The notes below the pieces were generated by a model. It was not told where the DNA came from. It saw nothing but the letters and a program-made list of their open reading frames with translations, and made no database searches. This document shows positions 3-61,369 of a stretch of 64,000 bases of DNA, piece by piece. Source of the DNA: Flectonema sp. DT1601 (Eukaryota); assembly GCA_964019425.1 (NCBI GenBank), contig OZ025794.1, positions 1,178,001 through 1,242,000 of the forward strand. Reading direction: 5' to 3'. Position 1 is the first letter of the stretch; every line of letters starts with the position of its first letter. Both the position numbers and the translations under genes were made by a program.

Positions 3-3000
3 AACTACTCCTCTCTTCAAGAAATGAGAGTTAGCACTTTTGACTTCTCAGATATGTACACCAACTTACCACATACAAAAATTAAAGCTGTTATTAATAC
101 ATTAGTCGAAGAATACATTGGAGACAATTTGATAGTTAGAGATAAACGAAGTCGAATTGGTAAAGATTTCTACTTGGCAAACGAATTTAACGAAGATGTG
201 CAAGTTGCTTACAACATAGAGGAGATCAAGGAACTACTGAATGTAATACTATCTAATTCTTATATTAAAAATGGTGACCATATGTTAAGGCAATGTCATG
301 GTATTCCAATGGGTTCTCAATGCTCTCCTCACATTGCTAATCTGTACTGCTTTGGTATCGAAAAGAACTGGATTGACAACATCATCCATAGCAATGGTTT
401 AAGTATTGCTAATGACAGGATAATCTTCAGATATATTGATGACTTTCTAATCTTTAGTAAGAATGAACCTACTCCACCTCCGCAAGCTGAATATCAAATG
501 TCATACACAGATACGTCACTTGGACGCAATGACATAGTTTTCCTAGGAATGAGAGTAAGATTTGAAGAAAGACCAAGAGGACATCCATTCATTCGTCTGT
601 CAATATGGGACAAAGAAAATCTGTTCAATTTTCAACCCATCAAATACACAAGCTCGACATCAAACGCACCAAGAAGCCTTGGTCCGGGCATATTGAAAGG
701 AGCCTTGTACAGAGCAGCAACCAATATCAACAATGACTTCGACTTATACTTGGAAATCGAAAAGGTGATTTACAGGCTACGCAGCCGAGGGTACTCGAAG
801 AAGAGCCTCTTCCCACAATACAAAGATTTCATTCTTAGTACATACTGGGATTTTCCGAAACAGAGAGATAACCTCCAGCAATTCTTTTTCAAGACAAATT
901 GGAGATATGACAAGGAACTACCCGTCACCTCTGAGAAGAAAACAATCCAACAGTACTACAAACTGAATGGACGAGATGACATTTATAACATGTTACTCGA
1001 TAAGAACGTTGGGTATGCAAAACTCAAAAAATGTAATAACACCATGGTTACTGCATTCCGGATTGCAAGTCACTCAATCACTAACAATCCAGATCAATGT
1101 CTAATATGTTCCACCGCAATAAACAAGAACACTGAGACACAGATTGATGCTTTGGATATTAAATATCGCAATGGGATATTTAAAGTAACCAAATTTTGCA
1201 AAGACTTCGACAAAATACTACCTGTTCCCATCAGTATTCTATCATACGACCAGGGTAAGACAACCCGTGAAATAATTAACAAACATGTGAATCACGAATG
1301 TCACATGGTTGTTGGTCGTACTAATGGAGGTTATTACTTTCCAATTACAAGTAAATATACGGAAAGTGATATTCAAAAAATCTTCCTCAAGGTTGACACG
1401 CCTGGAAAATCGGCGGAAGTTACAACAGAAGGGAAGTCAACTCCTAACACACCAGATACTGATGTAGTTATGACAGATAATACTACAGAAACGCAAGAAG
1501 ATGAAACGGAAAAATCTCAAACTGAAAAACCAGTTATGAAGAATGATAGAGGTCCTGAATGGGATATCTCGATCGATAAAAGGTTTCCTATTTCTATGCA
1601 CACTAAACCAGCTGAAGGCCTTAACAGCGGTGAGTGTGGTTGGGCCACCATTAATTTTATGGCTGATTATCTGAACATCGAGAGAATTCAGATATCTAAA
1701 GTCTTTAAGATTCAAGATGAGTTGGCAACACAAGAAATGAAGTGGTTAGGATTGGTTGAAATGTTCCAATTCAATCCTGATGGATGGTTTCACCAATTAG
1801 TCATATATGAGACAATTAAGATTCATCTGTCCTTAGAAATACACCATTGTACCAGCGCAGAAGATTTAGATAAAGTCAACAATATACTCAAAGAACAAAA
1901 CCTAAAACGCTTTCCATTCGTTATAATTACACGTAGATTAGCATACACTCACTATATCTTATTTATCGGAAAAGATACAGAGTATGCAGGATATGATATC
2001 ATTCAACACACTCCAAGTTATGAAACGTGGAACGACATTGCCAGGATATATCCTTTGGAAACATTTGACTATCACTTCGCATTCTGCCCTACAAAAAACA
2101 ATCCTATGGAGAAACTCCAATTTCCGAACCTCGACTATCCAACAATGGAGCCCCACATGGAAAACAAACAAGAGAAAGATACTCTTAGTCAAAAGACGAA
2201 TGATAACGATGACACAGCACTGTTATACGAGATGTTACAGAAATTTGAAGAGGATGATATCTCTACAACAGCTAAAGCCGCAGATCCATTGGATTTGAGA
2301 TCTTCGAATGAAAATACTACTCATAAGGAAGTCCTTCAAGAACCAAAGAAAGTCATTCAAGAACCGAAGGAAGTCATTCAAGAACCAAAGGAAGTCATTC
2401 AAGATCCAAAGAAAGTCATTCAAGATCCAAAGGAAGTCATTCAAGATCCAAAGAAAGTCATTCAAGATCCAAAGGAAGTCATTCAAGATCCAAAGGAAGT
2501 CATTCAAAATCCAGAGATAGATACACACCTAGATCCAAAAATAGGTCAGCAAGATGTGGATTTGGACGATAAGGAAGCAATAGGTGTTGCTAACAAGGCT
2601 TCTAAACCCAATACTCACTTCGACATCACTGATTACATAACTTCTGAAGATCAAAAGTCAAATGATTTTGTAAGTGGAACCACAAAGCTCACTAAGGTTC
2701 CCAATCATATCTTGAACACCAATCAGAATACTAACTTATGTCATATGGAATATGCTACACCAAATACCGATGTACATATGGAATCACCAATGACCACTAT
2801 TCTAACTGGTCCACTTTATAATACGGATACACAATTTAATTACGAAAATACAACACTTATAATTGCAACACCGCAGATTATACCAACCATCCCAAACTTT
2901 CGTAACCTATATCACAGCTCATCTGGGTGTCAAATCATGGCGGTATCACCTCCGAGAATATACAAAGTAAATACAATTGCTGCCATCTCACCCCCACAAG

Positions 3001-3059
3001 TCTATCACAACGGGGACAGCATTGTTGCCATCTCACCGCCAACTATCCTCCGATACTAA
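3..3059 (+). CDS. PLE reverse transcriptase polyprotein, 5'-truncated by the window: RT + CxxC/His cluster + Josephin-like domain + repeats
   Basis: The frame is open from position 3 (NYSSLQEMRVSTFDF), so the ATG at 24 is probably internal. YIDD at 432-443. Candidate protease triad: Cys 1635-1637, His 1950-1952, Asp 1995-1997. Confidence 0.85.
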   Translation, partial: NYSSLQEMRVSTFDFSDMYTNLPHTKIKAVINTLVEEYIGDNLIVRDKRSRIGKDFYLANEFNEDVQVAYNIEEIKELLNVILSNSYIKNGDHMLRQCHGIPMGSQCSPHIANLYCFGIEKNWIDNIIHSNGLSIANDRIIFRYIDDFLIFSKNEPTPPPQAEYQMSYTDTSLGRNDIVFLGMRVRFEERPRGHPFIRLSIWDKENLFNFQPIKYTSSTSNAPRSLGPGILKGALYRAATNINNDFDLYLEIEKVIYRLRSRGYSKKSLFPQYKDFILSTYWDFPKQRDNLQQFFFKTNWRYDKELPVTSEKKTIQQYYKLNGRDDIYNMLLDKNVGYAKLKKCNNTMVTAFRIASHSITNNPDQCLICSTAINKNTETQIDALDIKYRNGIFKVTKFCKDFDKILPVPISILSYDQGKTTREIINKHVNHECHMVVGRTNGGYYFPITSKYTESDIQKIFLKVDTPGKSAEVTTEGKSTPNTPDTDVVMTDNTTETQEDETEKSQTEKPVMKNDRGPEWDISIDKRFPISMHTKPAEGLNSGECGWATINFMADYLNIERIQISKVFKIQDELATQEMKWLGLVEMFQFNPDGWFHQLVIYETIKIHLSLEIHHCTSAEDLDKVNNILKEQNLKRFPFVIITRRLAYTHYILFIGKDTEYAGYDIIQHTPSYETWNDIARIYPLETFDYHFAFCPTKNNPMEKLQFPNLDYPTMEPHMENKQEKDTLSQKTNDNDDTALLYEMLQKFEEDDISTTAKAADPLDLRSSNENTTHKEVLQEPKKVIQEPKEVIQEPKEVIQDPKKVIQDPKEVIQDPKKVIQDPKEVIQDPKEVIQNPEIDTHLDPKIGQQDVDLDDKEAIGVANKASKPNTHFDITDYITSEDQKSNDFVSGTTKLTKVPNHILNTNQNTNLCHMEYATPNTDVHMESPMTTILTGPLYNTDTQFNYENTTLIIATPQIIPTIPNFRNLYHSSSGCQIMAVSPPRIYKVNTIAAISPPQVYHNGDSIVAISPPTILRY
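2325..2513 (+). repeat. Coding tandem repeat, 9 x 21 bp (K[E/K]V[I/L]Q[E/D/N]P)
   Basis: Unit close to AAGGAAGTCATTCAAGATCCA, repeated 9 times in frame within the RT ORF. Confidence 0.95.
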
Positions 3060-4866
3060 GAGTCCAACAGATGTTACTTCACCAACTCGGATGGATATTG
3101 ATATTGACACGGTGATTGCCGTCAATAACAGAAGTCTATATGATATTGACATCATCCCACCACCACATGTGGATACTCTTATAAGTGCCAAGAAAAAGAG
3201 TAACGACTCAATTCATAAAACTTGCCTTACCGATGTCGATACCAATAGCTACAACGAGATATCACCACCACAAACGGATGTACATATGTTGATCAATAAC
3301 AATGATCTCAACGTAATTGAGCCTATTGCACCACCACATACGGATGTTCATACGGTAATTAACAACAACAGTCTCGAGACATTCGAGTATATTTCACCAC
3401 CGCAGACTGGTATTCATATGCCTATAGTTATCGACAACAACAGTATCAACGCAAACGAACTTGCTTCACCACCACAAACTAATGTTCATATGGAGGTCAG
3501 AAACAATAGTCTCATTGCGACTGAGGCTATATCACCACCGTGTTTAGAAACACCTGAACATCGACATGTGTTTGAAACACCGGTAAAACAAAAGTCGGGA
3601 GGCAAAATCAAAACTCCGACAACCAACAAGATTGTCCCACAAGAACCACTAACTTGTTGGAATGGACACAATCGGGAGCTTATTTATGATTTAGCAATGA
3701 ATAGGCAACCTAACAAGATTGTTACAACATACACTGCACCATCGTTAAAAGTTACAACTCCGAAAACAGCAGCACGAAATAACACTGTTGTCATAGACAC
3801 AGAAGATAGTATGAACCCCGTAACTTCAATGCCGGAAAGTTTAAGTGATACCCTTGAACCTTGTTCAAAACGTAACAAAAAGTCCAATATACTGTCTCAT
3901 AAACATGCTATGAAGCAATCCAAAAAGAAAGCTTTCAATAATGGATCTCACGAGTCAATTATCCCTAAAACTAAAGTCATTACGCAATCACATACGCAGA
4001 TTAAGGATAAAACATCGGAACCTATCAATGAAGAATCTAGTAAGATACTTCCCCAACTTAAAGATGAAACCGGAAGTAAGAAAGATGAGACAACGTCGCA
4101 TGTTGAACTAGAAAAGGCAACAGAAGTTAATACAATAGTTGAGAACTCAATGACTGACGTGCCAACTACAACATCCTCGTCAGAACCATCCTACAAAGAT
4201 ACAACGCATATCAAGAGGAAATGTAAATATTGCTTCAAGACTAAAAAATCAATTATTGATCATGTCCACATATGCGCAATATTCAGAGCCTCAAAGGACT
4301 TTCCATATTACATGGATCATGATAATACAACGTATGAAGTTAACAACAGTGATGGCTCCAACAAGATCACAATGGTCATCAAGGAGAAGAAGAAACTAAA
4401 CGTGCGGTCTATCAAAAGAGGTGCAAAGCTAGTAACACAAATTCTTGAGAAAGAGGATAGTACACTAACTACACCAAAAAGAGATACCCGCAAAAGATTA
4501 AATTCTGAAAGTCCGATTCCAATAATCGAATTTAATGGATACATGGACAAGGACAAGAGAAAAAAGTTAGAGAATAAGAACGGATCTAAAAGTAAACGCA
4601 AGATCAAAGTTGAGGTTAATAAGATGCTAGTCGCTTCAGCAAAAAAGAAGGAGAAGTCGAAATATACAAAGAGATTAAATTCTGAAAGTCCTATGCAGCC
4701 GCTACTAAGAAAAGATGTACGAAAGAAACGAGCCAAACAAGAAGATATCAACACACCTAAAAGTGAAGATAAAGAGAACGTTACGAACATCTTAGATACT
4801 CCTTCGACTCCTGTTTTACATGATTTTGAAGATGTATCAGATTATGCATCAGATCTTGATAATTAA
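3040..4866 (+). CDS. Frameshifted continuation of the PLE ORF: ISPP repeats, CxxC...HxHxC zinc-finger-like motif, Lys-rich tail
   Basis: Overlaps ORF1 in the +1 frame. The [I/A]SPP motif series starts in ORF1 and continues here. KCKYCFKTKKSIIDHVHIC motif; KRLNSESP occurs twice. Confidence 0.7.
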   Translation, partial: QLSSDTKSPTDVTSPTRMDIDIDTVIAVNNRSLYDIDIIPPPHVDTLISAKKKSNDSIHKTCLTDVDTNSYNEISPPQTDVHMLINNNDLNVIEPIAPPHTDVHTVINNNSLETFEYISPPQTGIHMPIVIDNNSINANELASPPQTNVHMEVRNNSLIATEAISPPCLETPEHRHVFETPVKQKSGGKIKTPTTNKIVPQEPLTCWNGHNRELIYDLAMNRQPNKIVTTYTAPSLKVTTPKTAARNNTVVIDTEDSMNPVTSMPESLSDTLEPCSKRNKKSNILSHKHAMKQSKKKAFNNGSHESIIPKTKVITQSHTQIKDKTSEPINEESSKILPQLKDETGSKKDETTSHVELEKATEVNTIVENSMTDVPTTTSSSEPSYKDTTHIKRKCKYCFKTKKSIIDHVHICAIFRASKDFPYYMDHDNTTYEVNNSDGSNKITMVIKEKKKLNVRSIKRGAKLVTQILEKEDSTLTTPKRDTRKRLNSESPIPIIEFNGYMDKDKRKKLENKNGSKSKRKIKVEVNKMLVASAKKKEKSKYTKRLNSESPMQPLLRKDVRKKRAKQEDINTPKSEDKENVTNILDTPSTPVLHDFEDVSDYASDLDN

Positions 4867-5026
4867 TCATCTTATACTTTCTACATTTATTGTAGAAGAG
4901 TGCTCCACTAGTAGTGCGCTACGAACTAGTAATAACAAGAAGAATGTTTTTTTTATAAACATTATAACAAAGTAACTACATCCTAGTCTTGCTAACTAAG
5001 ATGCTTCAGTCACAACAGATGATTGA

Positions 5027-5094
5027 CTTACTTCTACACCATACTGATGATGAGAGAATAGAGGTAAGAGGTATATGGATTACTCTCGAAACCT
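5027..5094 (+). ncRNA. Hammerhead-ribozyme-like motif with non-canonical strand order
   Basis: Core CTGATGA 5044-5050 and GAAA 5088-5091. Stem I CCATA 5039-5043/TATGG 5074-5078. Stem II GAGAG 5052-5056/CTCTC 5083-5087. Stem III AGGT 5069-5072/ACCT 5091-5094. GUA cleavage triplet 5071-5073. Extra 10-bp helix 5027-5036/5059-5068. Confidence 0.7.
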
Positions 5095-5610
5095 AATAGT
5101 TACTTTAAAAGGCTAAGTTAAGCATCACACCTAGTCACTGTATCTCAGAACTAATGTTAAATTATCGTTATGTTTTTTATGATACAAAACATTTGTATTT
5201 TACGTACAAAATCAAACAGTTAACCCCCCAGACAGCACATATGTGTTGTCGATACTGACTGTTGGTCTTTTTTACATGGCAACCGGAATTGGTCGGACGC
5301 CACTTTAGTTTTAGCCAGTTTCAAGTTGCTTTCCATCCTTTAATATTAGTCTCAAGTTACCCCCTTCGCATCAGATACATATTCTAAAATGAAAGCTTAA
5401 GCTTCTGTCGTTTTTTCAGTTTAATTTTATTACTTATTTCAGTATTATAAAATTTCTTATTGTTTTCTACATTGTCAAACTATCACCCTTACTTCACATC
5501 AGATACATAAATTATTAAAAAAAACAAACAAACTATAATTAATATAAACCAAGAGAGCAAGAGAAAAGGAAACCTTTAAATATCCTTTTTCCTCTTTGTG
5601 TACTAGCAGT

Positions 5611-54312: not shown

Positions 54313-54544
54313 ATTTTTCATTCGTGTACACATTAGTCAGAGTAGTGTTCTAATGAAAGGAAATACGACTTCTAGTTGGATATTCAAAACAGTTTCAACA
54401 GGGTTAATGGACAACCAACAACATAAATATGTGAAATTACCTTGTTAGCTCTCACAGTGGTTGATTAGTTTTGTTTTGAATTTGATAATTATTTCTGAAC
54501 AGTTTACGTTTAGTCAACTAACCAACAAAACTAAAAAAAAGAAA

Positions 54545-55195
54545 ATGGGAAACTCTATGACTGGAGCATCAGAGATTAAGAGAACCAAACCATCAAGAGT
54601 AATGGACACTGACTCTGGAGTATTAAGTGATCCTGCACATATCAGAGGATGGATTCAAGGTAATGATGCTAACGCCATGTTAGTGAGATTACAAAGAGAA
54701 GTTCCATTTGAAAAGAATCCGAGATGGTCAGTCGGATATAAATTACCTCAAAGTGCTTACTACTATGATGAGAAGGCCAGAAAGAAGAATCCAATTCCTG
54801 TTCTCGAGGACTTAGCAATGGCTATGGAATCAAGTTTCAATTGTAATGTATTTACTATTTGGTGTAATCTATTTGAAGATGGTGGTTCTCATATTGAATG
54901 GCATCAAGACCAATATGGATATGATTGTTTTACTCTTTCTCTTGGAGCGACGAGAAGGTTTCTAATGAGACCGAAGGGAAAGAAGGAAATAATTGCCAGC
55001 TACGATCTCGCACACGGAGACGTTTATTTCTTCTCTCAAGATGCTGATAAGAGAAATGAGCATTCAGTTCCGAAAGATAGCTCATCGCTGTCAGCTGAAC
55101 GGTTGTCTATTTTATTCTTTGTTGACTTTCCTGGTAGCAAAGCTGAAGGATGGCACTACAACCCGAAGACTATCGATTACGGTAAAAGACGTTAA
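54545..55195 (+). CDS. AlkB-like 2OG-Fe(II) dioxygenase, copy 1 (216 aa)
   Basis: CNLFEDG..HIEWHQD, TLSLGATRRF, LAHGD, EHSVPK, RLSILF give the HxD...H triad and ALKBH2/3-type strands. N-terminus MGNS. Confidence 0.88.
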   Translation: MGNSMTGASEIKRTKPSRVMDTDSGVLSDPAHIRGWIQGNDANAMLVRLQREVPFEKNPRWSVGYKLPQSAYYYDEKARKKNPIPVLEDLAMAMESSFNCNVFTIWCNLFEDGGSHIEWHQDQYGYDCFTLSLGATRRFLMRPKGKKEIIASYDLAHGDVYFFSQDADKRNEHSVPKDSSSLSAERLSILFFVDFPGSKAEGWHYNPKTIDYGKRR

Positions 55196-55375
55196 TCAGA
55201 AGATGTGCTAATCATTACTGCCGACTTGTTTCTTATTTTTATTTCTCTTATTTCTTTAATTGGGGGGGGGACAATAAGCCTTTTTTTTGCCCCTCTATTT
55301 GCCAACTGTATCTGCCAACATTATTATTATTATTTTATTTTATTATTTTATTATCTTCTGAATTACTATAAGGCG

Positions 55376-55968
55376 GATGGCAGTACACTATGCCGTGATG
55401 GCAGTACAATATGCCGTGATGGCAGTACACTATGCCGTGATGGCAGTACACTATGCCGTGATGGCAGTACACTATGCCGTGATGGCAGTACACTATGCCG
55501 TGATGGCAGTACACTATGCCGTGATGGCAGTACACTATGCCGTGATGGCAGTACACTATGCCGTGATGGCAGTACACTATGCCGTGATGGCAGTACACTA
55601 TGCCGTGATGGCAGTACACTATGCCGTGATGGCAGTACACTATGCCGTGATGGCAGTACAATATGCCGTGATGGCAGTACAATATGCCGTGATGGCAGTA
55701 CACTATGCCGTGATGGCAGTACAATATGCCGTGATGGCAGTACACTATGCCGTGATGGCAGTACACTATGCCGTGATGGCAGTACACTATGCCGTGATGG
55801 CAGTACACTATGCCGTGATGGCAGTACACTATGCCGTGATGGCAGTACACTATGCCGTGATGGCAGTACACTATGCCGTGATGGCAGTACAATATGCCGT
55901 GATGGCAGTACAATATGCCGTGATGGCAGTACACTATGCCGTGATGGCAGTACAATATGCCGTGATGG
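55376..55968. repeat. Minisatellite, 28 x 21 bp (GATGGCAGTACA[C/A]TATGCCGT)
   Basis: Direct tandem units differing at a single C/A site; no spacers. Confidence 0.97.
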
Positions 55969-57045
55969 TATTATTTTCCCCCGACCAAATATCAATATAC
56001 CCGCACCTTTTTTCCATTCTACGGTGGAAACCATCAAGTTCTATAGAGAAGCTGCTGCTGACCGAAAGGTTTGGTGGTGACTGCCTCTATCAGAACTGCG
56101 GAAAAAAAGAGACAACCAACGTCTTGATGCTTTCAACTCTCGGGTGCGTACTTTCGGGTACTCCCTGTTGGTTAGAGTAACAAGGGATCTGGTTGATCCA
56201 GCTTTAATCTTTATTTTGTTCTCCTGATAAAGTAAGTTTTGTAAATGTAATGCTTGTTGACGAACCTCTGTTTTTTACTCATTCTTCTTCAATTAAGTAA
56301 AGTGAAAAAGATTTTCTCGTCGTCTGCTGAAGAAAAAGTTTTTACTGCCTGACGCCTACCTCCCTTTTTTGATTATTATACGAAAATATGAAATTCTTAT
56401 TTTTTTTTCAAGGAGAGAACCGATTTAAATAAAAAGTAGTTTTTTATCTACAATCTGTTTGCGTGATGTTTCGGCTCAATTTTGCCTGCACAAACTTCTA
56501 ATTACTAACTCAGTGAGTGTCATTTCTTCCTCTCTTTTCTTGTTATTTATTTCTCTTTTATCGATCATGGCTTTTGATCGATGTTTTCTTTTTATTAATT
56601 TGAATTAGTCTCCAACGTTTGTACAACTGGACGAGTTCTACGATTCGTATATTTATTTTATTTTATTGATCTTATTCTGTTTTAATTATGTTATAAAGAT
56701 ATAATACATTGACTCTTTAAATCTTTCCTCTGTTTGTTTTTGTTTCCTTCGGAACTGATGTTCAGTTGGGGAAGTTATTTTTATCCACTTGGCTTTGAGC
56801 TGAGGTGACAGTTTTTCTTTTTATTAGTTGTCTGCCCCGCTCACAAGCGAGTTCTTCTGAGCTCAGTCTTTGCGACTTCTCGTTGGTTATTCAGAACATT
56901 TTTAACAGGATTCGATATCAATAAAAAATATGTGAAATTACCTTCTTAGTTCTCACAGTGGTTGATTAGTTTTGTTTTGAATTTGATAATTATTTCTGAA
57001 CAGTTTGCGTTTAGTCAACTAACCAACAAAACCAAAAAAAAGAAA

Positions 57046-57696
57046 ATGGGAAACTACATGACTGGAGCATCAGTGATTAAGAGAACTAAACCATCAAGAG
57101 TAATGGACACTGACTCTGGAGTATTAAGTGATCCTGCACATATCAGAGGATGGATTCAAGGTAATGATGCTAACGCCATGTTAGTGAGATTACAAAGAGA
57201 AGTTCCATTTGAAAAGAATCCGAGATGGACAATCGGATATAAATTACCTCAAAGTGCTTACTACTATGATGAGAAGGCCAGAAAGAAGAATCCAATCCCT
57301 GTTCTCGAGGACTTAGCAACGGCTATGGAATCAAGTTTCAATTGTAATGTATTTACTATTTGGTGTAATCTATTTGAAGATGGTGGTTCTCATATTGAAT
57401 GGCATCAAGACCAATATGGATATGATTGTTTTACTCTTTCTCTTGGAGCAACGAGAAGGTTTCTAATGAGACCGAAGGGAAAGAAGGAAATAATTGCCAG
57501 CTACGATCTCGCACACGGAGACGTTTATTTCTTCTCTCAAGATGCTGATAAGAGAAATGAGCATTCAGTTCCGAAGGATAGCTCATCGCTGTCAGCTGAA
57601 CGGTTGTCTATTTTATTCTTTGTTGACTTTCCTGGTAGCAAAGCTGAAGGATGGCACTACAACCCGAAGACTATCGATTACGGTAAAAAGCGTTAA
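57046..57696 (+). CDS. AlkB-like 2OG-Fe(II) dioxygenase, copy 2 (216 aa)
   Basis: Near-identical to copy 1; N-terminus MGNY. Confidence 0.88.
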   Translation: MGNYMTGASVIKRTKPSRVMDTDSGVLSDPAHIRGWIQGNDANAMLVRLQREVPFEKNPRWTIGYKLPQSAYYYDEKARKKNPIPVLEDLATAMESSFNCNVFTIWCNLFEDGGSHIEWHQDQYGYDCFTLSLGATRRFLMRPKGKKEIIASYDLAHGDVYFFSQDADKRNEHSVPKDSSSLSAERLSILFFVDFPGSKAEGWHYNPKTIDYGKKR

Positions 57697-58772
57697 TCGG
57701 AAGATGTTTCTTATTTTTCTTTCTCTCATTTCTTTTATACACAAATTGGGGACACTAAGCCTTTTTCCCAACCATTACTGCAACGTTGTTATTTTATTTT
57801 ATTTTTATTATCTTCTGAATTACTATAAAGCAAAATGGCAGTACACTATGCCACAATGTTATTATTATTTCTCTACGCCTTTTTTTCAATTGCAACTTTA
57901 GTCTTTATTTTGTTCTCCTGATAAGGTTTGGAACATGTAATGATGGTTGACAAAACTCTCTTTTTTTCCCAATTCGTCCCCTCTTCCGTATTGTTTTTAT
58001 TTCTTCAGATATAAAAAATAAATAAATTAACAAAATCGGATTCCCCGTTGTTCTGTTCTGTTCTGGCCAAGTATTGTTGGGGGCTGGAATAATAATCTAT
58101 AAAAAATAATTTAAAAAAAAAAAAAAAAAACTGCCTGACGCCTACCTCCCTTTTTTGAATATTATACCAAAATGTGAAATATTGTTATTTTGATAAATTA
58201 TGCACCGACTGGGTCGAAGAAGAAACTATTCAGATTCAGGGAAATGTTATCTATTTCTCTGTGCGCCTGTCTGCGATCAACAAAACAAAATATATAAATC
58301 TTTATCCGGATGGTTTGAAAAGTAGTTTTTATCTACAATCTGTTTGTGTGATGTTTCGGTTCAATTTTGCCTGCACAAACTTCTAATTACTAACTCAGTG
58401 AGTGTCATTTCCTCCTCTGTTTTCTTGTTATTTATTTCTCTTTTATCGATCATGGCTTTTGATCGATGTTTTCTTCAATTTGTTCGACCCCGCTCAAAGC
58501 GAGTTCTTCTGAGCTCATCGCCTGTGTTAGCTGGTGACGGCCTGCTGGTGTCTGCCTACTCAAAAGTGAGTTCTTCTGAGCTCAGTCTTTGCGACTTCTC
58601 TTTGTTTATTAAGCATTTTCAACAGGATTTTATAGACAACCGTCGGCAACAAAAAATATGTGAAATTACCTTGTTAGTTCTCACAGTGGTTGATTAGTTT
58701 TGTTTTGAATTTGATAATTATTTCTGAACAGTTTACGTTTAGTCAACTAACCAACAAAACTAAAAAAAAAAA

Positions 58773-59423
58773 ATGGGAAACTCTATGACTGGAGCATCAG
58801 CGATTAAGAGAACTAAACCATCAAGAGTAATGGACACTGACTCTGGAGTATTAAGTGATCCTGCACATATCAGAGGATGGATTCAAGGTAATGATGCTAA
58901 CGCCATGTTAGTGAGATTACAAAGAGAAGTTCCATTTGAAAAGAATCCGAGATGGTCAGTCGGATATAAATTACCTCAAAGTGCTTACTACTATGATGAG
59001 AAGGCCAGAAAGAAGAATCCAATCCCTGTTCTCGAGGACTTAGCAATGGCTATGGAATCAAGTTTCAATTGTAATGTATTTACTATTTGGTGTAATTTAT
59101 TTGAAGATGGTGGTTCTCATATTGAATGGCATCAAGACCAATATGGATATGATTGTTTTACTCTTTCTCTTGGAGCAACGAGAAGGTTTCTAATGAGACC
59201 GAAGGGAAAGAAGGAAATAATTGCCAGCTACGATCTCGCACACGGAGACGTTTATTTCTTCTCTCAAGATGCTGATAAGAGAAATGAGCATTCAGTTCCG
59301 AAGGATAGCTCATCGCTGTCAGCTGAACGGTTGTCTATTTTATTCTTTGTTGACTTTCCTGGTAGCAAAGCTGAAGGATGGCACTACAACCCGAAGACTA
59401 TCGATTACGGTAAAAAGCGTTAA
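58773..59423 (+). CDS. AlkB-like 2OG-Fe(II) dioxygenase, copy 3 (216 aa)
   Basis: Near-identical to copy 1; N-terminus MGNS. Confidence 0.88.
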   Translation: MGNSMTGASAIKRTKPSRVMDTDSGVLSDPAHIRGWIQGNDANAMLVRLQREVPFEKNPRWSVGYKLPQSAYYYDEKARKKNPIPVLEDLAMAMESSFNCNVFTIWCNLFEDGGSHIEWHQDQYGYDCFTLSLGATRRFLMRPKGKKEIIASYDLAHGDVYFFSQDADKRNEHSVPKDSSSLSAERLSILFFVDFPGSKAEGWHYNPKTIDYGKKR

Positions 59424-59583
59424 TCGGAAGATGTTCCTATTTTTCTTTCTCTCATTTCTTTTATACACATAGGGGGCAGTAATTCTTTATTGCACTACTG
59501 ACATTAATCTAGTACCCTGTGCTAGTTGTCGTTGTGCCATGAAAGTCTTTCTTGTGATAAGTGTCACATGCTTCCCTTCCCTT

Positions 59584-59618
<35 letters not shown>

Positions 59619-60718
59619 GAAGATTTTTTCAGATTCACCTGCCTTAATTACTATTACTGAAAAAAAAAGAGACAAGAAAAAAGGGTTTATTTTCCCTTCT
59701 TTTCATTCTCTTTTTCTCGATCTTCTTTTTTTTTTCCTCCCTTTTCGCATGTTTAAAAAAACGCAGAGGGTGTGGGTGTCTTATGTTTTAAGCAGCTTCG
59801 CTTTCGTTAAAAATAATATCAGAAAGCCAAAACTTAGGTGCCCACGCTGCTGCTGTCAACGTTGTTTCTTTTTTTTTTTTTTGAATTACTATAAAGCAAA
59901 ATGGCAGTACACTATGCCACGATGTTATTATTATTTCCCTACGCCTTTTTTTCAATTACAACTTTAATCTTTATTTTGTTCTCCTGATAAAGTTTGGAAC
60001 ATGTAATGATGGTTGACAAAACTCTCTTTTTCCCCCAGTCTTCCGTATTGTTTTTATTTCTCGAGATTTGAAAAAAAAAAAAAAAAAAAAAAAAAAGAAA
60101 TTTAACAAGTTCTGTTCTAGCCAAATATTGTTACTTGGATGCTGGAATAATATAAACAAAAAAAACGGCAAAAAAGAATAAAAAAATGTCTCATCGTTTA
60201 TTGAAAAAAAAAAAAAGTTTTACTGCCTGGAACCTCCCTTTTTGACCAAAGGTGGCCTTTTTTTTGTTGTTGTCTTTTTTCAAAAGAAGAAGGGAAGTGG
60301 ATCGATTTAAATAAAATCTGTTTGTGTGATGTTTCGGCTCAATTTTGCCTGCACAAACTTCTAATTACTAACTCAGTGAGTGTCATTTCTTCCTCTCTTT
60401 TCTTGTTATTTTCTTTTTATTGTCATGGCTTTTGATTGATATGTTTTTTTTTTGAAAGGGGTTGTCAACCGGTGCGAAACCAGTTCGGGAGAAATTTCCC
60501 TTTTCGCTCTCATCAATCGAAGTTATTAAGTGACTTGAATTGTGGTAATCTTTTTTTTTAAAATTTATTTTATAAAAACTATTTTCACACACACAGATCC
60601 GTTAACAAACAATAGTATGAAATAAGCAACTCTAACTCATTTCGTATCAACAGATGACAGAAGACATTTCATTACATTAAACACCGTACACTCCACAGAT
60701 AACATTTTTGTTTTCAAT

Positions 60719-61369
60719 ATGGGGAATTGCTGCAACAGTAACCCTTCGTTTCAGAGAATAAAACCGTCAGCAGTACTTGACAGCGATACAAATGTTTTAA
60801 GTGATCCTGCTGTAGTAAGAAAATGGATGTCAGAGTCAGAGGCTGATAAGATGTTCGTTAGACTCGAAGACAACGTTCCGTTTGAAAAAAATCCGAGATG
60901 GTCATTACTGTATAAATTACCTCAAAGTGCTTACTACTATGATGAGAAGGCCAGAAAGAAGAATCCAATTCCTGTTCTCGAGGACTTAGCAATGGCTATG
61001 GAATCAAGTTTCAATTGTAATGTATTTACTATTTGGTGTAATTTATTTGAAGACGGTAATGACTATATTGAATGGCATCAAAACCAATATGGATATGATT
61101 GTTTTACTCTTTCTCTTGGAGTTACGAGAAAGTATCACATGCGCTCGAAAAAAAACAAAAAAAACAAAAAAACATACAATCTCTCTAACGGAGATGTTTT
61201 CTTCGTCTCTCAAGATGCTGATCGCAAAAATGAACATTCGCTTCCCAAAGACAAAAAATCACAAATGGGAATGAGGATTTCTATTTTATTTTTCGTCGAC
61301 TTTCCCAACAGCAAACAACACGGGTGGCGGTATAATCCTCAGACAATTGACTATATAAGTGTAAAGTAA
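60719..61369 (+). CDS. AlkB-like 2OG-Fe(II) dioxygenase, divergent copy 4 (216 aa; HxN instead of HxD; MGNCC N-terminus)
   Basis: Same length and fold motifs, diverged termini, central part almost identical to copies 1-3; AAC (Asn) at 61082-61084. Confidence 0.85.
   Translation: MGNCCNSNPSFQRIKPSAVLDSDTNVLSDPAVVRKWMSESEADKMFVRLEDNVPFEKNPRWSLLYKLPQSAYYYDEKARKKNPIPVLEDLAMAMESSFNCNVFTIWCNLFEDGNDYIEWHQNQYGYDCFTLSLGVTRKYHMRSKKNKKNKKTYNLSNGDVFFVSQDADRKNEHSLPKDKKSQMGMRISILFFVDFPNSKQHGWRYNPQTIDYISVK

What the first reader, a model, noticed from the sequence alone, without database searches (positions are those of the whole stretch)
5027..5094. Hammerhead ribozyme core with permuted (pseudoknotted) strand order at the retroelement 3' end
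Seen: 5'-CTTACTTCTA CA CCATA CTGATGA T GAGAG AA TAGAGGTAAG AGGT A TATGG ATTA CTCTC GAA ACCT-3'. All conserved core residues are present, with one extra U after CUGAUGA, and stems I, II and III can all pair. Established: hammerhead types I-III are circular permutations of one strand order, A (stemI-CUGANGA-stemII), B (stemII-GAAA-stemIII), C (stemIII-UH-stemI), and PLEs commonly carry hammerheads. Here the order is A-C-B: the cleaved strand (AGGUA|UAUGG) lies inside what would be the stem II loop, which is not a circular permutation. An extra 10-bp helix (5027-5036/5059-5068, one G-U) could act as a strut from the tips of stems I/II to stem III. Inference: a hammerhead topology I do not recognise from known types, which descriptor searches would likely miss. 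Predicted cleavage is after A5073, as a monomer or dimer.
Basis: partly seen in the sequence, partly recalled or inferred. Interest (0 to 1): 0.92.

Follow-up and report, generated by a model that had tools for sequence, protein, structure and literature searches.

The report
Knotted hammerhead ribozyme in Penelope-like retroelement
This stretch holds every part of a hammerhead, a self-cutting RNA, in a rare knotted order first published in 2023 from two soil sequences; it sits in the tail of a jumping gene from a group reported to lack ordinary hammerheads and likely cuts that gene's RNA, though cutting was not tested here.

Summary
In detail: 5027-5094 carries the full hammerhead core, stems I/II/III (5/5/4 bp) and a 10-bp extra helix; 0 of 2088 shuffled windows match as strictly. 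The strand order is not new: it is type-CSG of Eckert et al. 2023 (PMC10085705), which has the same extra helix and cleaves in vitro. New is the setting. Eckert had two unique soil-metagenome sequences with no host. Here the RNA lies 178 nt behind the stop codon of a multi-copy Penelope-like element of the Naiad/Chlamys clade (Chlamys-like side) in a eukaryote. That clade was published as lacking canonical hammerheads, with unexplained 'half cores' (PMC8557442). Intact CSG also follows the ORF in 2 of 116 related loci, a third has hairpins inserted in the core, and 6 (probably 7) of 8 published nematode Naiad consensi read by eye as CSG. Rfam and the published CSG pattern miss the window's RNA. 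Limits: no cleavage or RNA data, short stem III, most related loci show nothing. The scan earlier noted one type-CSG and a split-core Naiad form on other DNA. New member of a rare known kind.

The parts
3..3059 (+). Retroelement ORF, first part (its start lies before the window): Penelope-like reverse transcriptase, then a probable papain-like protease domain and a 7-residue repeat
   Evidence: Open frame; Pfam RVT_1 E 5.7e-8 at residues 79-155; 21-nt repeat 2325-2513
1590..2100 (+). Probable Josephin/C39-like cysteine protease domain (approximate limits; Cys near 1635, His near 1950)
   Evidence: Lead only: atlas scores 0.86-0.90; weak alignment (E 0.004) to the start of the Josephin domain of relative P0064
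2971..4866 (+). Retroelement ORF, second part; the window's copy has a frameshift near 3045, while family members P0008, P0011 and P0012 read through as one protein
   Evidence: no Pfam family
4867..5106 (+). 3' untranslated tail holding the ribozyme; the element's true 3' end was not established
   Evidence: Follows the stop at 4866; a 10-bp inverted repeat 4969-4978/5097-5106 encloses the ribozyme
5027..5036 (+). [quoted passage not shown]
   Evidence: Pairs with 5059-5068, 10 bp, one G-U
5039..5056 (+). Block C: stem I 5' strand, CUGAUGA core, one inserted U, stem II 5' strand
5059..5068 (+). Extra helix, 3' strand; joins stem III with no linker
5069..5078 (+). Block S: stem III strand, GUA triplet, predicted cut between 5073 and 5074, stem I 3' strand
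   Evidence: site predicted by analogy with cleaved CSG-1 and CSG-2
5083..5094 (+). Block G: stem II 3' strand, GAAA, stem III 3' strand

Best explanation
This is a type-CSG (non-circularly permuted, double-pseudoknotted) hammerhead in the 3' tail of a Naiad/Chlamys-clade Penelope-like retroelement, predicted to cut the element's RNA in cis between 5073 and 5074. Shown: the blocks, the four helices, the place behind the ORF, the element's clade features, and the same architecture with different stem sequences behind distant relatives. [quoted passage not shown] Inferred further: as proposed for other Penelope-like elements, the cut trims read-through or tandem (pseudo-LTR) transcripts to unit-length templates for reverse transcription.
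For: Anatomy and chance test. [quoted passage not shown] Intact CSG with an 11-12 bp extra helix on the sense strand behind the ORF in L101 and L106, 2 of 116 loci against 2 in 277 shuffled sets; none on the antisense strand; L107 is CSG with 30 nt inserted between A9 and G10.1. Across window, L101, L106 and L107, 4 of 5 stem I, 4 of 5 stem II and 2 of 4 stem III positions change on both sides, core-proximal pairs are fixed. L101, L106, L107 encode GIY-YIG before RT. By eye, complete CSG near the 3' end of Naiad_Parc, Naiad-1/-2/-3_Nbra, Naiad_Hcon, Naiad_Hpol and probably Naiad_Asuum. Family of 35 protein records on many long contigs, with three long read-through members among the 15 listed.
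Against: No cleavage assay and no RNA reads. No DNA of the other copies of this family, so no variation data for this very ribozyme. Stem III is 4 bp, shorter than in every other CSG seen (5 in Eckert's, 6-15 in L101/L106/L107) and joins the extra helix with no linker. The window's ORF is frameshifted, so this copy may be inactive. 104 of 116 related loci show no permuted form (L004 is an unclear case among them); of the 32 with 1 kb or more behind the stop only 5 do. None of the 116 loci that were placed in the tree (34) falls in the window's own group, and no CSG was seen in the Chlamys consensus passages displayed. The four stored examples are very distant, so the paired changes show a shared architecture, not proven descent. 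The role of hammerheads in any EN+ Penelope-like element is called unclear in PMC8557442.
Confidence: 0.76

Rival explanations
1. A real but decayed or very slow CSG hammerhead: inherited from an active ancestor, now weakened by a short stem III in a frameshifted copy, with no present role.
For: Stem III only 4 bp; frameshift near 3045; published CSG rates are low.
Against: All core residues and all 24 pairs of the four helices are intact with one G-U; the family is young, with near-identical members and read-through ORFs.
Confidence: 0.15
2. The RNA cuts as a dimer or in trans between two element transcripts, as described for minimal Penelope-like hammerheads, so that the knotted single-chain fold need not form.
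For: Dimer cleavage is known for other Penelope-like hammerheads (title of reference 58 in PMC10085705; paper not read); short stem III.
Against: The extra helix brings stems I and II together within one chain, as in CSG-1/2; stem III here is not a strained hairpin; the design recurs with long stems III.
Confidence: 0.06
3. A chance arrangement of hammerhead-like motifs in an AT-rich tail.
For: Folding z-score only -1.1; no Rfam match.
Against: 0 of 2088 shuffles as strict; same design, same strand and same place in relatives.
Confidence: 0.03

Closest known systems
Type-CSG hammerhead ribozymes CSG-1 and CSG-2 (Eckert et al. 2023, PMC10085705; read: main text parts 1-6 of 8, supplement part 2 and search passages; figures not seen)
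   Same: Block order C-S-G, full core, extra helix from upstream of stem I to between stems II and III, 4-nt linker between stem I' and stem II', about 66-68 nt.
   Different: Here one U after CUGAUGA (foreseen in their pattern file), GUA instead of GUC, stem III 4 bp, extra helix 10 bp with no linker to stem III; lies in a eukaryotic retroelement, whereas theirs are 2 unique (5 total) soil-metagenome sequences with no host or gene context given.
Naiad/Chlamys N-terminal-endonuclease Penelope-like elements (Craig et al. 2021, PMC8557442; read: passages, section 9, supplement part 1 and search passages)
   Same: CxC and DK motifs before RT, long motif A-B spacing, nearest relatives with GIY-YIG before RT, C-terminal cysteine-protease-like extension as in Chlamys-1_cBra.
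   Different: The paper reports no canonical hammerhead outside two Chlamys subclades and leaves 'HHR_core' and 'HHR_half_core' cases unexplained; this element carries a complete CSG. Its endonuclease was not seen.
Canonical type I hammerheads of other Penelope-like elements (as tabulated in File S2 of PMC8557442; Cervera and de la Pena 2014 and Lunse 2017 not read)
   Same: Same core, frequent extra U after CUGANGA, same place in the 3' tail / pseudo-LTR.
   Different: Order C-G-S, a three-way junction with a tiny stem III loop; no pseudoknots and no extra helix of this kind.
Type-SGC hammerheads (HRIMA-1, PMC10085705)
   Same: [quoted passage not shown]
   Different: Order S-G-C; found in metatranscriptomes on viroid-like RNAs.

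Membership tests
Type-CSG hammerhead | Block order C, S, G on one strand | tested here: met
   definition
Type-CSG hammerhead | All conserved core residues (CUGANGA, GAAA, UH, G10.1-C11.1) | tested here: met
   one inserted U, allowed by the authors' second pattern file
Type-CSG hammerhead | Stems I, II, III can pair | tested here: met
   5/5/4 bp, no mismatch; stem III is one pair shorter than the published search pattern asks
Type-CSG hammerhead | [quoted passage not shown] | tested here: met
   5027-5036/5059-5068; same position as in Supplementary Figure 10
Type-CSG hammerhead | Covariation of the stems | tested here: inconclusive
   Double-sided changes among 4 very distant stored examples and by eye in nematode Naiads; no close copies of this ribozyme were available
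Type-CSG hammerhead | Site-specific self-cleavage | not testable with these tools
   Needs an in vitro assay; no sequencing run was listed
Canonical hammerhead types I-III | Circular permutation of C-G-S, three-way junction | tested here: not met
   Only the CSG order is found; no other sense-strand cleavage strand; no Rfam hit
Naiad/Chlamys Penelope-like elements | Penelope-type RT | tested here: met
   RVT_1; best relatives are GIY-YIG + RT proteins
Naiad/Chlamys Penelope-like elements | CxC motif and DK motif before RT | tested here: met
   Present in family members P0005, P0011, P0018; this part lies before the window's first base
Naiad/Chlamys Penelope-like elements | Insertion in fingers (long motif A-B spacing) | tested here: inconclusive
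   87 residues against 84-85 in three GIY-YIG-first relatives and a median of 88 in 72 hits; no canonical element was on hand for contrast
Naiad/Chlamys Penelope-like elements | N-terminal GIY-YIG endonuclease | tested here: inconclusive
   Not found in the 12 family members scanned, of 15 listed and 35 in the cluster; their N-ends look incomplete; present in close relatives P0048 and P0059
Naiad/Chlamys Penelope-like elements | Pseudo-LTR / partial tandem structure | not testable with these tools
   The 5' part lies outside the window and no genome is held
Chlamys rather than Naiad | Outside the metazoan Naiad clade; endonuclease without CCHH | tested here: inconclusive
   Quick unrooted tree puts the family in a 27-row group apart from Naiad-type loci, SH-aLRT 100; no published Chlamys sequence in the tree; endonuclease not seen

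The most novel reading that the evidence does not exclude
A knotted hammerhead is the old, native 3' ribozyme of the whole Naiad/Chlamys clade. The intact CSG form survives on both sides of the clade's deepest split (this protist element; nematode and marine Naiads); hairpins inserted between A9 and G10.1 (L107) lead to the split-core form of other animal Naiads; and Eckert's orphan soil CSG RNAs are tails of such retroelements. This window would be the first case from the Chlamys-like side.
Probability: 0.4. Interest if true: 0.78.

Novelty: new member of a known kind. Interest (0 to 1): 0.6.

Why it matters
Type-CSG was known from two unique sequences with no host, and its authors called the evidence for biological relevance weaker. 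A genomic example on a multi-copy retroelement, with distant relatives keeping the design, gives it a biological home. It also bears on a published puzzle: Naiad/Chlamys elements were said to thrive without canonical hammerheads, which was used to suggest that hammerheads may merely parasitise Penelope-like elements. If many of them carry a knotted one instead, that argument weakens, and the role of self-cleavage in Penelope-like retrotransposition becomes testable in a new clade. It also supplies more natural CSG sequences for structure work.

Tried and rejected
No genome is held and no sequencing run was listed (no RNA holder listed, not evidence), so other copies and RNA ends could not be examined. 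Rfam: nothing at the site nor in L101/L106/L107 (it did give weak hammerhead hits for the type I control L197). PDB sequence search: nothing useful. A broad RT alignment had no conserved stretch to search with; narrower ones found no relative in viral contigs. MAFFT misaligned the three ribozymes, so pairs were counted from the structure in a script. The careful tree did not finish; the quick tree is cited. The atlas did not answer for the host gene; a homologue search with a host gene showed eukaryotic and environmental relatives but no host name, so the host stays unidentified; a diplonemid-like protist is only a recalled resemblance. An endonuclease-less telomeric element (Athena/Coprina type) was considered and dropped because of the CxC/DK motifs and GIY-YIG-first relatives. 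That the CSG loci were Hero-type elements was checked and rejected for L101, L106, L107.

Full report
Observation. It holds CUGAUGA (5044-5050) with one extra U, the triplet GUA (5071-5073) and GAAA (5088-5091), in that order, with stem I 5039-5043/5074-5078, stem II 5052-5056/5083-5087, stem III 5069-5072/5091-5094 and a 10-bp helix 5027-5036/5059-5068. A scan for all six block orders on both strands found this one site in 64 kb. In 2088 dinucleotide shuffles the loose pattern gave 3 CSG hits, one with an extra helix of 8 bp or more, and none as strict as the real site. No other sense-strand stretch of the window could serve as cleavage strand. Nested folding is unremarkable (z -1.1), as expected when two of four helices are pseudoknots; the minimum-energy fold holds the other two.

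The topology is known. Eckert et al. 2023 (PMC10085705; main text parts 1-6 of 8 read; supplement part 2 and search passages; figures not seen) divide the hammerhead into blocks C, G and S and report the non-circular orders SGC, CSG and GCS. [quoted passage not shown] They found none of their RNAs in known organisms' genomes apart from one GCS candidate, and mention Penelope-like elements only in a reference title. My re-coding of their two CSG patterns finds nothing in the window or in 116 loci; it finds the window once stem III may be one pair shorter and the linker up to 30 nt, and L101 and L106 once any base is allowed in CUGANGA. Rfam finds nothing.

The element. The ribozyme core starts 178 nt behind the stop codon (4866) of a long ORF whose start lies before the window. 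It encodes an RT (Pfam RVT_1). A protein nearly identical to it stands for a cluster of 35 records; the 15 listed lie on several long contigs and three read through as 1689-1943 residues, so the window's copy is frameshifted near 3045. Members show the CxC and DK motifs before the RT and an A-B spacing like that of GIY-YIG-first relatives. Of 20 relatives scanned, 7 match GIY-YIG and 9 match a cysteine protease (7 UCH, 1 Josephin, 1 calpain) at E up to 0.01; the window's own C-terminal part has a probable protease of that kind (leads only). This fits the Naiad/Chlamys clade of Craig et al. 2021 (PMC8557442; passages, section 9 and supplement passages read), and the Chlamys-like side of it. The endonuclease itself was not seen in the 12 members scanned. 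The neighbouring genes are eukaryotic; the host was not identified.

Why the setting matters. Craig et al. report that Naiad and most Chlamys elements lack canonical hammerheads, yet list cases with a core that fits no descriptor and eight 'half cores' with GAAA 35-50 nt away on either side. Here that distance is 37 nt. Searching the text of their consensus file for core motifs, I read by eye complete CSG hammerheads, each with the extra helix, near the 3' ends of Naiad_Parc (extra helix/I/II/III 11/6/5/12 bp), Naiad-1_Nbra (13/5/5/11), Naiad-2_Nbra (13/5/5/6), Naiad-3_Nbra (9/5/4/6), Naiad_Hcon (15/6/5/9) and Naiad_Hpol (16/5/5/9), and in a passage that is probably Naiad_Asuum (10/6/5/11, one mismatch, with the same extra U): 6, probably 7, of 8 nematode consensi; none was seen for Naiad_Ppac. 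This reading was not computed. It is incomplete: motifs broken by a line end are missed, as happened at first for Hpol, and three motifs were shown only in part. No CSG was seen in the Chlamys passages shown.

Computed test on stored loci. Among these 116, the strict pattern found 2 hits, both CSG with an 11-12 bp extra helix, both on the sense strand, 554 and 1047 nt behind the stop (L101, L106); 277 shuffled sets gave 2 such hits in all, and no locus had a type I, II or III hit. L107 is CSG with 30 nt, two small hairpins, between A9 and G10.1. All three encode GIY-YIG, CxC and RT in Naiad order. Among window, L101, L106 and L107 the core-proximal pairs are fixed and 4 of 5 stem I, 4 of 5 stem II and 2 of 4 stem III positions change on both sides. 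Nine further loci carry a split-core form in which the 5' strand of stem II lies upstream (sense strand 9, antisense 0; 1 hit in 149 shuffled sets; five of the nine are close kin). Against generality: 104 of 116 loci show no clear permuted form; many end early, but of 32 with 1 kb or more behind the stop only 5 have one. A quick unrooted tree of 65 rows (34 of the 116 loci, chosen for a ribozyme or 900 nt of tail and a long match, and 31 proteins) separates the window's family (27-row group, SH-aLRT 100) from L101, L106 and L107. So CSG occurs on both sides of a deep split, but no close relative of the window's element could be examined at DNA level, and shared descent is not shown.

Mechanism. 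Shown: anatomy, position, clade features, recurrence. Established for the type: cis-cleavage after the UH triplet (PMC10085705). Inferred: the extra helix replaces the loop I-loop II contact, the RNA cuts as a monomer between 5073 and 5074, and the cut trims tandem or read-through transcripts, the role proposed for hammerheads of other Penelope-like elements and still called unclear. The main doubt is the 4-bp stem III in a frameshifted copy.

Novelty. Searches of the paper library: 'non-circular permutation' + hammerhead, 'type-CSG' + hammerhead (only Eckert), Penelope-like + hammerhead + pseudoknot + permut, Naiad + hammerhead, hammerhead + SGC + permutation + retrotransposon from 2023, 'non-circularly permuted' + ribozyme, Chlamys + Penelope-like + ribozyme from 2022. 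Passages of bioRxiv 10.64898/2026.07.22.740005 (its supplements are closed and could bear on this) and of PMC13725137 make no such link; the other listed papers were seen as listings only. Subscription journals are mostly not covered. I found no paper tying CSG hammerheads to Penelope-like elements. This scan's own unchecked notes report one type-CSG in another genome and the split-core Naiad form in several animal genomes; nothing like this window by sequence or place and nothing on the Chlamys side under the words tried. I had noted the Naiad link before opening them. Verdict: a new member of a rare known kind, in a setting that gives that kind a host and bears on a published puzzle; interest 0.6.

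Noticed in passing
L019:2613, L040:4437, L044:4423, L047:4360, L049:5287, L054:4443, L066:3156, L098:3391, L109:3276 (core positions): Split-core hammerhead behind Naiad-type ORFs: order II, extra helix, III-UH-I', II'-GAAA-III', extra helix, I-CUGANGA, so block C is broken between A9 and G10.1, which Eckert assumed cannot happen. Also seen by eye in published ctenophore, coral, ostracod and octopus Naiad passages. 9 sense, 0 antisense, 1 in 149 shuffled sets.
   Followed up: partly
L107:4919-5045: CSG hammerhead with two small hairpins (30 nt) between A9 and G10.1; a possible intermediate between the intact and the split-core forms.
   Followed up: partly
L004:2335-2460: Possible SGC-order hammerhead behind the ORF, with a long insert and a bulged stem II, or a split-core form; unclear.
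   Followed up: no
P0049, P0051, P0052, P0057, P0063, P0064, P0079; L040, L044, L054, L066, L109: Many Naiad/Chlamys-clade ORFs carry a cysteine protease behind the RT, mostly of the ubiquitin hydrolase (UCH) family, one Josephin (for the loci by motif only). The passages read of PMC8557442 mention only a weak Josephin match in one Chara family.
   Followed up: partly
window 6130-36561: One open frame of 10143 codons starting with a leishmanolysin (peptidase M8) domain, Pfam E 5.7e-32; only its first 1000 residues were scanned.
   Followed up: no
window 54449-61369: Four copies of a 2OG-Fe(II) oxygenase (AlkB-like, PF13532) gene in a duplicated block, with a 21-nt tandem array of 28 units at 55376-55968.
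   Followed up: no
window 4969-4978/5097-5106 and 5000-5006/5120-5126: Perfect inverted repeats of 10 and 7 bp that flank the ribozyme and could close it into its own domain or compete with it.
   Followed up: no
L081-L116: 36 loci with Naiad/Chlamys-type RT lie in prokaryote assemblies, mostly on short contigs of metagenome-assembled genomes; most likely eukaryotic contamination.
   Followed up: no
L197:147-198, L207 (minus strand): Two ordinary type I hammerheads in viral contigs, used as positive control.
   Followed up: no
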